From Octopus sinensis (lineage: Eukaryota), in the NCBI RefSeq assembly GCF_006345805.1, contig NC_043015.1:41168001-41232000 (forward strand): a DNA stretch of 64,000 bases, written 5' to 3'. Below are positions 54,168-62,322 of this stretch, piece after piece. Within the stretch, counting starts at the first letter, position 1. Each line of letters opens with the position of its first letter. The notes beneath the pieces were generated by a model that saw only the letters and a program-made list of their open reading frames with translations, had not been told where the DNA came from and did not search any database. Position numbers and translations under genes: made by a program.

Positions 54168-54297
54168 ATGAATGTTAACTGCGAGGAGACGCCATTTATT
54201 TATGTTAACCAAGACGACATTATCCACTTGACGCAAGAAGTGAAGAATTTCTCTGATGCTCTGGCAAAGTTAAAGTGTGTCTTCACTGATGGAACCG
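54168..54297 (+). CDS. ARHGAP45: RhoGAP (ARHGAP45/ARHGAP29/GMIP family), first coding exon seen
   Basis: ATG at 54168 gives MNVNCEETPFIYVNQDDIIHLTQEVKNFSDALAKLKCVFTDGT, resembling the family's N-terminal helical domain (DII.LT..V..F..AL..L...F). Donor G|GTAAGT after 54297 (phase 1). A pyrimidine tract plus TTCAG at 53995 suggests the exon starts at 53996 with 5'UTR. Confidence 0.8.
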
Positions 54298-56868: not shown

Positions 56869-57068
56869 CAATTCTGTAAACCAAATTTTGTCTCAAGATT
56901 TGTTTTAATTTCTTTCTCTTCCATTATTCAAATTCATTTTTCATATCCATAATTAAAAGCATGTTTTTTGTTTTGAGGGGGGGGTGGTTATGCATCATAT
57001 TTCATCATATAGATTATTGGTTTTTTTTTTGTTTTTATTTCAAATTTTCTTTTACCGTTTATTTCCAG

Positions 57069-57156
57069 ATTACAATTATGAAAGCAGCATCAGTTCTGGT
57101 AGCACTCAAAGTTTCTGTGACTGCATTGATAAACTGGCATTGGCTTTTAGCAGCAG
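57069..57156 (+). CDS. ARHGAP45: RhoGAP ARHGAP45/29-like, third exon
   Basis: Long T tract plus TTCCAG acceptor; phase 1 entry gives (N)YNYESSISSGSTQSFCDCIDKLALAFSS, matching the family's NYE...ID.LALAFSS motif. Donor AG|GTGAAC, phase 2. Confidence 0.85.
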
Positions 57157-57254
57157 GTGAACTCATTTCCTTATTGCAACCATCAAATATTTATTCCATT
57201 TAACACAACCTCATACAATTTGTTATTGAATATAAACACAATGAATTAAACACA

Positions 57255-60552: not shown

Positions 60553-61765
60553 TCGTCATCATCATCATCATCGTCGTTTAACATCCGCTTTCCATGTTGG
60601 CATGGGTTGGATGGTTTCACTGAGGACTGGTGAGCCAGAAGGCTGCACCAGGCTCAATCTGATCTGGCAGTGTTTCTACAGCTGGATGCCCTTCCTAATG
60701 CCAACCACTCTGAGAGTGTAGTAGGGTGCTTTTATGTGCCACCAGTACAAGGGCCAGTCAGGCAGTTCTGGCAACAACCATGCTCAAAAGGTGTTTTTTA
60801 TGTGCTACCTGGCACTGGCAACGACCACGCTCAAATGTTGCTTTTCGTATGCTACCGGACATGTATCAGTAAGGAAATGCTGGCAACGATCACGCTCGAA
60901 TGGTGCTTTTTACGTGTCACCGGCACGGGAACCAATCCGTGGCCCTGGCAACAATCACACCCGGATGTGCTTTTAACATCCCACTGGCATGAGTGCCAAT
61001 CAAGCAGTACTTTCATCTGCCACGTCTGCAATTTTGATTGTGATTTAAATTTCACTTGCCTCAATAGGTCTTCGCAAGCAAAGTTTATAGTCCAATGAAT
61101 GAGGGATATTCATAAGTGGACTAGTCACACCCACTGGCATAGGCCATGGGCTATGATCTCATTTGGCTTGTTGGGTCTTCTTAAGCACAGCATATCTCCA
61201 AAGGTCTCGGTCACTAGCTGTTACCTTGGTTAAGGCCCAACGTTCAAAGGTCGTGCTTCATTACCTCATCCCAGGTTTTCGTGGGTCTACCTCTTCCACA
61301 GGTTCCCTCAACTGCTAGGGTGTGACACTTTTTCACACGGCTGTCCTCATCCATTCGCAACATAGGACCATACCAGCGCAGTCGTCTATCTTGCACACCA
61401 CATCTGATACTTCTGAAGTCCAACTTTTCTCTCAAGGCACTTACACTCTGTCGTGTATGCACATTGACATTACAAATCCAGCGGAGCATACTGGCTTCAT
61501 TCCTTGCAAGCTTACACATGTCGTCAGCAGTCACAGCCCATGTTTCACTGCCATGTAGCCTGGCTGTTCATACACATGCATCATACAGTCTACCTTTTAC
61601 TCTGAGCGAGAGGCCTTTTGTCACCAGTAGAGGTAAGAGCTCTCTGAACTTTGCCCAGGCTATTCTTATTCTAGCAGCTATGCTTTCAGAGCATCCACTC
61701 CCGTTACTGATTGGTCCCCTAGGTAACGGAAGCTATCAACTACTTGTAATTTTTCTCCCTGGAAT
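60553..61765 (-). mobile_element. RTE-clade LINE, 5'-truncated, ORF end plus long 3'UTR
   Basis: ARIRIAWAKFRELLPLL..KGRLYDAC..HGSETW..EASMLRWICNV..RRLRWYG..GRGRPTKTWDEV; ~650-bp 3' region ending GTTAAACGACGATGATGATG. Confidence 0.92.
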
Positions 61766-61843
61766 GTGACAAAAGCTGTTCTATGTGTGTATATATGTAT
61801 GTATTCATGTATATGTGTGTATACATATGTATGTATTCATGTA

Positions 61844-61888
<45 letters not shown>

Positions 61889-61899
61889 TATATAGAAGG

Positions 61900-61950
61900 A
61901 GCTTCTACAGGACTAGAACTGTTTCATTCAAGAGAAATCTTCAGGAAGCT
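61900..61950 (-). ncRNA. Type I hammerhead ribozyme motif, core intact
   Basis: Minus strand: AGCUUC-CUGAAGA-U-UUC(UCUU)GAA-U-GAA-ACAG(UUCUAGUC)CUGU-A-GAAGCU. Stem I 6 bp, both core boxes, stem III 4 bp, GUA cleavage triplet. Confidence 0.75.
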
Positions 61951-61996
61951 TCCTGAAGATTTCTCTTGAATGAACAGTTCTAGTCCTGTAGAAGCT
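61947..61996 (+). ncRNA. Hammerhead motif, inverted copy with GAAA reduced to GAA
   Basis: Mirror of 61900-61950 with one A missing from the GAAA box; probably inactive or a sequence error. Confidence 0.6.
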
Positions 61997-62322
61997 CCTT
62001 CTATATAATAAATTAATTTTACTCTGCTATGTATTGAGTACCTTATTTACTGTGGTTAACCCCGAATCAACCCGGGACCTACATATATATATATATATAT
62101 ATATATTCATGTATATGTGTGTGTGTGTATATATATATATTATATTAATCAGCCGAAATTGCTAGGATGATCCGGTTCTTGACTGAAGATTGAAGGCTTC
62201 GAATGTCCCGTCCGTGTTTTTTGTATCGTCTTCTAAATGTTTCACGTTCTTGTCCCAGTGTGTATTTTTTTACATTTACATATATATTATATTATATATA
62301 TATATGTATGTATTCATGCATA

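What the first reader, a model, noticed from the sequence alone, without database searches (positions are those of the whole stretch)
61883..62013. Spacerless palindrome built from two head-to-head hammerhead ribozymes
Seen: a 131-bp palindrome whose arms each fold as a type I hammerhead (stem I AGCUUC/GAAGCU, CUGAAGA, short stem II, GAAA, stem III ACAG/CUGU, GUA site). The two share the central AAGCTT; the minus copy has a full core and the plus copy lacks one A. Known: Penelope-like elements and retrozymes carry type I hammerheads and often have inverted terminal copies. Inference: a Penelope-derived self-cleaving unit probably inside a RhoGAP intron. Only the antisense ribozyme is intact, which would fit selection against cutting the host pre-mRNA, and the long hairpin competes with the ribozyme fold.
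Basis: partly seen in the sequence, partly recalled or inferred. Interest (0 to 1): 0.8.

Follow-up and report, generated by a model that had tools for sequence, protein, structure and literature searches.

The report
Penelope retroelement's shortest, self-silencing insertion
This ribozyme palindrome is one of hundreds of near-identical 200-base fragments of a Penelope-like jumping gene, likely made when two DNA copies ran off the capped start of its RNA and joined head to head, which would place the RNA start at the first base of the ribozyme.

Summary
The palindrome and both hammerhead cores are real, but this is not a one-off host-tuned unit. The element spans 61883-62082 between (TA)n runs: an inverted 68-bp arm plus a direct arm that runs on into a 69-bp tail. 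It is the 3' pseudo-LTR of a young ~5.8-kb Hydra-clade Penelope-like element (RT plus GIY-YIG-type ORF). The genome holds 217 exact copies of the centre and 1,434 of the tail; 39 of 100 tail copies examined are such mini-palindromes, with many different junctions. Arms stop at the first base of stem I, 29 nt downstream of TATAAA, and often carry an extra non-genomic G (22 versus 2). Best reading: transcription starts there, two cDNAs primed by the cut (TA)n target at +68 and +137 run off the capped, uncleaved RNA, and their ends anneal at AGCT. The missing A matches background one-base loss (5 of 232 arms), so selection against cutting the host pre-mRNA is not supported. Any read-through RNA makes the antisense arm first and is predicted to bury the ribozyme. 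The structure is a known kind; the start-site evidence appears new but lacks RNA data.

The parts
61858..61882 (.). (TA)n target, left side; boundary blurred by TA microhomology
   Evidence: sequence; all 17 first loci flanked by (TA)n
61883..61950 (-). inverted arm, element positions +68 to +1
   Evidence: outer end at +62..+76 in 60 of 64 inverted arms, +68 in 43
61900..61950 (-). intact type I hammerhead, Hydra-clade layout; predicted cut between 61906 and 61905
   Evidence: motif scan; same layout as published Hydra hammerheads; cleavage untested
61947..61950 (.). shared AGCT = +1..+4 of both arms; inferred RNA 5' end and annealing site
   Evidence: 217 exact junctions; end hotspot; extra G
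61947..61996 (+). hammerhead on the direct arm, lacking one A of GAAA (run at 61973-61974)
   Evidence: loss at background rate; contigs listed carry the A
61987..62005 (+). predicted competing hairpin (+42..+60) that covers the cut site and the 3' strand of stem I
   Evidence: computed on the intact arm: stem I probability falls from 0.99 (51 nt) to 0.25 (68 nt), hairpin 0.73; prediction only
62014..62082 (+). 69-bp tail (+69..+137) between the two inferred reverse-transcription start sites
   Evidence: 1,434 exact copies of a 30-mer from it; followed by the ORF in tandem copies L184 and L194
62083..62106 (.). (AT)n target, right side
   Evidence: sequence
54219..54293 (+). context: probable host exon, ARHGAP29/45 N-terminal domain positions 1-25
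   Evidence: PF24235 E 4.9e-5, below cut-off
57068..57157 (+). context: probable host exon, ARHGAP29/45 N-terminal domain positions 75-103
   Evidence: PF24235 E 8.7e-4, below cut-off

Best explanation
The palindrome is a short, repeatedly formed insertion of a Hydra-clade Penelope-like retroelement, likely made when both ends of a cut (TA)n target prime reverse transcription near the capped 5' end of the element's uncleaved RNA and the two cDNAs run off that end and anneal head to head. SHOWN: the family and its parent ORF; (TA)n targets; two fixed 3' ends (+68 and +137); a 5'-end hotspot at the first base of stem I; varied junctions; an extra G; TATAAA or CATAAA at -29. INFERRED: a TATA promoter in the pseudo-LTR starts the RNA at +1, so the hammerhead is the first 51 nt; the extra G is the copied cap; the two cDNAs (68 and 137 nt) end in self-complementary AGCT and anneal, or are joined by microhomology repair. 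The product lacks the TATA box and the ORF, so it is likely a dead end. Read-through RNA in either direction makes the antisense arm first and is predicted to form a 65-bp hairpin, so neither ribozyme would cut. The missing A is likely a sequencing error or a neutral slip.
For: Copy number: 217 exact centres, 1,434 exact tails. Of the first 100 tail copies on C1, 39 are mini inverted units; 32 of 100 direct arms end at +1..+7, none at -5..-30 and 2 at -1..-4; 35 of 39 adjoining inverted arms end at +1..+7. Other self-complementary sites are rarely used: GTTAAC at -7, 3 loci; CTAG at -2, 2 loci; AGCT at +48, 9 loci. Extra base after a complete arm: 22 C against 2 G unexplained on the cDNA strand among the first 100 of 940 rows (hand count; the other 76 rows were 35 ambiguous GCTCC junctions, 20 subfamily B, 2 read-through, 19 explained by the partner arm); p = 1.8e-5. 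In the tail-selected sample G precedes +1 in 17 of 24 non-genomic, non-perfect cases, and on both arms in L044 and L118. An untemplated G marks capped ends (PMC6280765; extra G in an L1-made insertion, PMC11702581). TATAAA at -29, and CATAAA at the same place in subfamily B whose -22..-1 has diverged. Inverted arms that cover sequence absent from the direct arm (L018, L021, L107, L120, L130) need two cDNAs. Subfamily variants occur in both long and mini forms, so minis arise repeatedly. In vitro work on another Penelope-like element shows two internal start sites that define the tail, extension from both target strands, and uncleaved RNA as main substrate (PMC11167929).
Against: No RNA 5'-end data: only contigs were available, and RNA status of those runs is a guess. 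The extra G could be templated by cDNA fold-back on mirror stem I (+52 is C); 5 of the 22 cases continue CCT as that predicts. The 35 GCTCC junctions could include assembly deletions. 52 of 100 copies extend upstream of +1, so longer templates also exist. The best-studied Penelope promoter is internal and TATA-less (PMC2377424). Five published Hydra sequences show no consistent TATA at -29 (1-2 of 5 suggestive). Arms match in 32 of 32 typed pairs (shuffled mean 23.0), which fits one RNA or one source locus but also fold-back copying or conversion. The 100 copies are the first listed on one contig, not a random draw.
Confidence: 0.72

Rival explanations
1. Single-cDNA snap-back: one cDNA runs from +137 to +1, folds back at AGCT, copies itself to +68 and joins the target by TA microhomology.
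For: Spacerless centre on a self-complementary 4-mer; arms identical in 32 of 32 typed pairs; L113 carries one private change on both arms.
Against: Inverted arms covering sequence missing from the direct arm (L018, L021, L107, L120, L130); extra G on both arms in L044 and L118; +68 is also the free 3' end of long ORF-bearing copies (L178, L183, L189).
Confidence: 0.12
2. Position +1 is a processed RNA end, such as a splice acceptor (YAG at -1..+2) or a nuclease stop, not a transcription start; the rest of the model stands.
For: TAG or CAG at -1..+2 in both subfamilies; in Drosophila virilis Penelope an intron ends at the 5' end of helix I (PMC4209133).
Against: Arms keep A+1 and G+2, and no shared leader lies upstream of the single G; conserved TATA-like box at -29.
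Confidence: 0.08
3. A self-propagating palindromic element (MITE- or SINE-like) amplified from a palindromic master copy.
For: 217 identical junctions; near-identical copies.
Against: Many junction types around the same site; each subfamily has its own minis; minis lack the TATA box; no target duplication seen.
Confidence: 0.04
4. One reading: a self-cleaving unit in a RhoGAP intron whose sense ribozyme was inactivated by selection.
For: The broken core is on the + strand, the likely host sense strand.
Against: A-loss at background rate (5 of 232); also found on inverted arms (L003); contigs listed carry the A; the hairpin is predicted to block cutting anyway.
Confidence: 0.03
5. Assembly fold-back artefact.
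For: The assembly has frequent one-base losses.
Against: 217 dispersed loci with different flanks; asymmetric tail; contigs of an independent run cross the centre and show an insert-type junction with the same extra G (tables 5c and 8).
Confidence: 0.01

Closest known systems
Hydra clade of Penelope-like elements (PMC8557442)
   Same: C-terminal GIY-YIG-type nuclease, DKT, RWK-like motif, CxCX5C linker, CxxC and CxH, (TA)n target, hammerhead with CUGANGAU..UGAA core and ACAG/CUGU stem III; inverted 5'-truncated copy at the 5' end.
   Different: Unit is ~5.8 kb with a ~3.3-kb simple-repeat 3' UTR (published ones mostly under 3 kb); hammerhead differs from the listed octopus family Hydra-1_Obim; 69-bp tail (30-40 bp typical); about 39% of tail copies are ribozyme-only palindromes.
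Anolis Poseidon element PAc, in vitro (PMC11167929)
   Same: Two internal reverse-transcription starts bounding the tail, both target strands extended, AT-rich target, uncleaved RNA as main template.
   Different: Here both starts are TA-like and so match the target, while PAc starts are described as non-homologous; the ORF begins at +184, downstream of the hammerhead; the parts of that paper I read do not map the RNA 5' end.
Opposite-strand hammerhead pairs in Schistosoma Penelope-like elements (PMC4209133)
   Same: Two hammerheads on opposite strands close together, from truncated elements.
   Different: There 100-700 bp apart and heterogeneous; here spacerless, sharing stem I bases, near-identical, with a fixed end.
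L1 twin priming (PMC11702581, passages)
   Same: Second target end primes internally, cDNAs are joined by microhomology, cap-derived G can appear.
   Different: L1 gives an inversion without duplication (my recall); here the two cDNAs overlap, giving a palindrome, and the second site is fixed.
Non-LTR retrozymes (PMC7229834; bioRxiv 10.64898/2026.07.22.740005)
   Same: Short non-coding, type I hammerhead, Penelope-related.
   Different: Retrozymes are head-to-tail tandem arrays that yield circles; this unit is head-to-head and cannot release a monomer.

Membership tests
Hydra-clade PLE (parent) | single ORF, RT then C-terminal GIY-YIG-type nuclease | tested here: met
   ORFs of 541-688 aa with YRDD and a C-terminal VY..YIG region; no Pfam RT or GIY-YIG hit; Atlas look-alikes at 0.96-0.98 carry PF26215, some PF00078 or PF01541
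Hydra-clade PLE (parent) | DKT and RWK motifs | tested here: met
   PSDKTKN in L178 and L179; IRWRS in L184 (R in place of K) (definition)
Hydra-clade PLE (parent) | CxCX5C linker; CxxC and CxH around conserved E and N; no CCHH | tested here: met
   CNCPDKTTC, CDLCISE, NKISEHSPNCMH; no cysteine pair inside the VY..YIG core; read by eye
Hydra-clade PLE (parent) | (TA)n insertion | tested here: met
Hydra-clade PLE (parent) | canonical hammerhead in the pseudo-LTR | tested here: met
   against the published table; common variants fall at N7, loop II, loop III and +61 (241 arms, pattern allowed at most 3 substitutions)
Hydra-clade PLE (parent) | generally under 3 kb | tested here: not met
   ~5.8-kb unit in L184; a tendency in the paper, not a diagnostic
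Hydra-clade PLE (parent) | placement inside the clade in an RT tree | not tested
   reference proteins were not in hand as stored sequences
PLE inverted-repeat insertion | inverted 5'-truncated copy at the 5' end, tail on one end only | tested here: met
   definition
Type I hammerhead ribozyme | CUGANGA, GAAA, NUH, three stems, open stem I | tested here: met
   minus arm; plus arm lacks one A
Type I hammerhead ribozyme | match to Rfam hammerhead models | tested here: not met
Type I hammerhead ribozyme | Mg2+-dependent self-cleavage | not testable with these tools
   indirect only: 4 loci with a clean 5' end at +46 among 27 rows against 1 among 9 rows at control +49
Non-LTR retrozyme | head-to-tail tandem units, each with a hammerhead | tested here: not met
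   head-to-head; only scattered partial tandems among 100 copies
MITE | terminal inverted repeats, target duplication, one amplified master | tested here: not met
   tail on one side, varied centre junctions, RT parent

The most novel reading that the evidence does not exclude
The genome holds a fossil 5'-RACE library of a Penelope-like element: its RNA begins, capped, at the first base of the hammerhead, and priming just downstream on uncleaved RNA gives retrovirus-like strong-stop cDNAs that are captured as palindromes. The hammerhead would then be the switch between abortive and productive copying: only cleavage at both pseudo-LTRs with circularisation or a strand jump across stem I lets the RT go on and rebuild the upstream TATA promoter, and a hairpin at +42..+60 keeps most RNA uncut. 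The several hundred perfect 65-bp hairpins against the element's own leader could also feed small-RNA silencing of the parent.
Probability: 0.3. Interest if true: 0.78.

Novelty: new variant of a known kind. Interest (0 to 1): 0.52.

Why it matters
How Penelope-like elements make their inverted and tandem structures, and what their hammerheads are for, are open questions in the papers read (PMC8557442, PMC11167929, PMC4209133). This young family gives hundreds of natural junctions that point to the RNA start, two priming sites and an uncleaved template in vivo, matching the in vitro study and naming exact bases to test. The window copy itself is ordinary and probably has no host function.

Tried and rejected
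Rfam: no hammerhead match; hits were miRNA hairpin models, rejected as generic. Neptune-type GIY-YIG ORF beside L078 (PF01541): rejected as parent, since it is not shared by other long copies whereas the Hydra-type ORF is. Search for copies ending at the cut site: 44 matches, 30 examined, mostly point changes; only L048 is a clean junction at GUA, L067 and L062 are explained by TA microhomology; weak. Starts at +46: 13 of 27 rows are explained by stem I microhomology. One search used a mis-built pattern and is void; one search replaced it. The first fold was offset by one base; one search replaced it. RNA: no RNA holder listed on record; contigs of four guessed-RNA runs cover the tail-ORF junction but cannot show a start or strand. 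The missing A could not be resolved for this locus, because contigs pool all copies. ORF-bearing cDNAs reaching the 5' pseudo-LTR: L114 (+14), L250 (+44), L242 (+57), L173 (+91) stop inside it, L184 and L194 pass -196; too few to decide linear against circular template. TATA at -29 in five published Hydra sequences (sixth not found): inconclusive. No further host exon found in 44 of 83 candidate frames between 54.3 kb and 94 kb apart from the one at 57 kb. Earlier findings: none. Literature searches with no paper holding all terms: Penelope + hammerhead + TATA + transcription start; hammerhead + palindrome + head-to-head + retrotransposon; Penelope + twin priming + inverted listed two papers not on this subject by title and abstract start. 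Most subscription papers, Repbase and bioRxiv supplements were not visible.

Full report
Observation. The window has a 131-nt spacerless palindrome at 61883-62013 with one unpaired base; it folds at -104.5 kcal/mol, z -22.9. A strict type I hammerhead scan of both strands of the window found only the minus arm; the plus arm lacks one A of GAAA. Rfam hammerhead models did not match, but the layout equals that of published Hydra-clade hammerheads (supplement table of PMC8557442). I number the element from +1, the A of stem I (61947 on +, 61950 on -).

It is a family. The window lies at G000:C19:41168001-41232000 of a 2.72-Gb genome. A search with the palindrome gave 506 candidates, 40 scored; 36 have both cores intact and 4 lack an A. 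The exact 30-nt centre occurs 217 times. In all 17 loci first fetched one arm runs on into a 69-bp tail and both ends sit in (TA)n, so the unit is 61883-62082. A 30-mer of the tail occurs 1,434 times. Contigs of an independent run cross the centre, so it is not an artefact.

The parent. I fetched the first 100 listed tail copies. 52 extend upstream of +1, 39 are mini inverted units, 9 are other short forms. Long copies lead through a simple-repeat-rich 3' UTR to an ORF in L082, L092, L108, L111, L114, L115, L123 and L153. A protein search scored 146 places. L184 is a whole partial tandem: pseudo-LTR, ATG at +184, ORF with late frameshift, ~3.3-kb UTR, pseudo-LTR; unit ~5.8 kb. The protein has DKT, RWR, YRDD, CNCPDKTTC, CDLC and CMH, which are the Hydra-clade marks (section 11 of PMC8557442). 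Pfam gave no RT or GIY-YIG hit; Atlas look-alikes are animal RT/GIY-YIG proteins. No tree was built. The host looks like an octopus-type genome from its repeats; that is recall, untested.

Where the arms end. The 3' ends are fixed: +137, and +62..+76 for 60 of 64 inverted arms, 43 at +68 (ends are blurred by TA microhomology). Both sites resemble the (TA)n target. The 5' ends pile up at the start of stem I: 32 of 100 direct arms and 35 of 39 adjoining inverted arms end at +1..+7. Junctions vary: perfect AGCT overlap, microhomologies, short inserts. Self-complementarity alone does not explain the hotspot: palindromes centred on GTTAAC (-7) number 3, on CTAG (-2) 2, on the second AGCT (+48) 9, against 217. 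Subfamily variants appear in long and mini forms alike, so minis arise again and again. The two arms agree in 32 of 32 typed pairs, shuffled mean 23.0, maximum 29, and in 19 of 21 distant pairs. In L018, L021, L107, L120 and L130 the inverted arm holds sequence the direct arm lacks, which points to two cDNAs, though later deletion could mimic it.

Why +1. TATAAA lies at -29; subfamily B has CATAAA at the same place although -22..-1 has diverged, and both have pyrimidine-A at -1/+1. Complete arms often carry one extra base, G in RNA sense. Among the first 100 of 940 rows I counted by hand 22 unexplained C against 2 unexplained G on the cDNA strand (p 1.8e-5); the 76 other rows were 35 ambiguous GCTCC junctions, 20 subfamily B, 2 read-through and 19 explained by the partner arm. 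Some rows are two strands of one locus. In the tail-selected sample G precedes +1 in 17 of 24 such cases. An untemplated G is a known mark of capped ends (passages of PMC6280765 and PMC11702581). Against this: fold-back on mirror stem I could template the same base (5 of 22 continue CCT); +1 also fits a YAG acceptor, and a Penelope intron ends at helix I in D. virilis; that element's promoter is TATA-less; five published Hydra sequences show no consistent -29 box; no RNA start data exist here.

Mechanism. Likely the nuclease cuts (TA)n, one end primes at +137 and the other at +68, both cDNAs run off the capped end, and they anneal at AGCT or are joined by microhomology repair. This matches the in vitro behaviour of the Anolis element: two internal starts bounding the tail, both strands extended, uncleaved RNA preferred (PMC11167929). 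Cleaved RNA is seldom the template of short products: 4 clean +46 ends among 27 rows against 1 of 9 at a control site, and one clean 3' end at GUA among 30 of 44 examined. A predicted hairpin at +42..+60 lowers stem I probability from 0.99 to 0.25 once 68 nt are made, which would keep much RNA uncut. How promoter-bearing copies such as L184 and L194 are made (circle, strand jump or tandem read-through) is not settled.

Host gene and the missing A. Two + strand exon pieces match the ARHGAP29/45 N-terminal domain below cut-off and RhoGAP exons lie 78-82 kb downstream on +, so an intron of a + strand gene is likely; the link rests on recalled domain order. The A is lost in 5 of 232 arms outside the first 17 loci, comparable to 5 of 278, 2 of 48 and 2 of 46 in other short runs (counts deduplicated by context, approximate). 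Contigs listed carry the A but pool all copies. In either direction read-through RNA makes the antisense arm first, and the hairpin (-104.5) far outweighs the hammerhead fold (-7.3). Selection is therefore not needed and not supported.

Comparison and novelty. Inverted 5'-truncated copies with a one-sided tail are standard for Penelope-like elements, and opposite-strand hammerhead pairs 100-700 bp apart were noted in Schistosoma. It is not a retrozyme or a MITE. I found no paper describing spacerless ribozyme palindromes as run-off products or a start site at stem I (searches; the library lacks most subscription papers and Repbase). Papers seen: PMC8557442 (passages, section 11, supplement part 2 and passages); PMC11167929 and PMC4209133 (parts 1-2 of 4 each); bioRxiv 10.64898/2026.07.22.740005 (part 1 of 5; supplements closed); PMC2377424, PMC7229834, PMC11702581, PMC6280765 (passages). 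Verdict: a new variant of a known kind; the window copy is ordinary, the family is a useful natural record of Penelope-like replication. Interest 0.52.

Noticed in passing
window 62146-62275 (+): A different repeated ~130-bp fragment between simple repeats, with a CUGAAGA..CGAAU core-like motif; 80-93% matches in L102, L240, L106, L259, L207, L054 and part in L085. Probably the end of another Penelope-like family with a degenerate hammerhead.
   Followed up: partly
L078:3002-3718 (-): Neptune-type GIY-YIG ORF with a C..CxxC linker (PF01541, E 1.8e-5) beside a family copy; a separate element.
   Followed up: partly
L198, L221, L222, L224 (around 1500): Subfamily B with diverged -22..-1 sequence, CATAAA at -29, same hammerhead with loop II AUCU; 20 of 100 rows.
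   Followed up: partly
G000:C5:98103530-98103581: Mini-palindrome with both arms ending exactly at the predicted cut site (+46), with a short insert between; L102 also starts at +46.
   Followed up: partly
L048:1500-1524 (same locus as L020): Upstream copy of a partial tandem ends exactly at GUA, as if the RT jumped onto a cleaved RNA 3' end.
   Followed up: partly
window 61247-61766 (-): Fragment resembling the end of an RTE-type LINE ORF (HGSETW..LRWYG motif; recalled, untested).
   Followed up: no
window 60768-60923; L156:5898-7105: Three 44-nt repeats and a long tandem array with open frames on the minus strand; they look like related satellite-type units.
   Followed up: no
PMC8557442 supplement, Hydra-2_Ajap and Hydra-2_Amil: Stem I of Hydra-2_Ajap begins in TCAGTT, an initiator-like word (consensus recalled); Hydra-2_Amil has a TATA run about 30-38 nt upstream of stem I.
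   Followed up: partly
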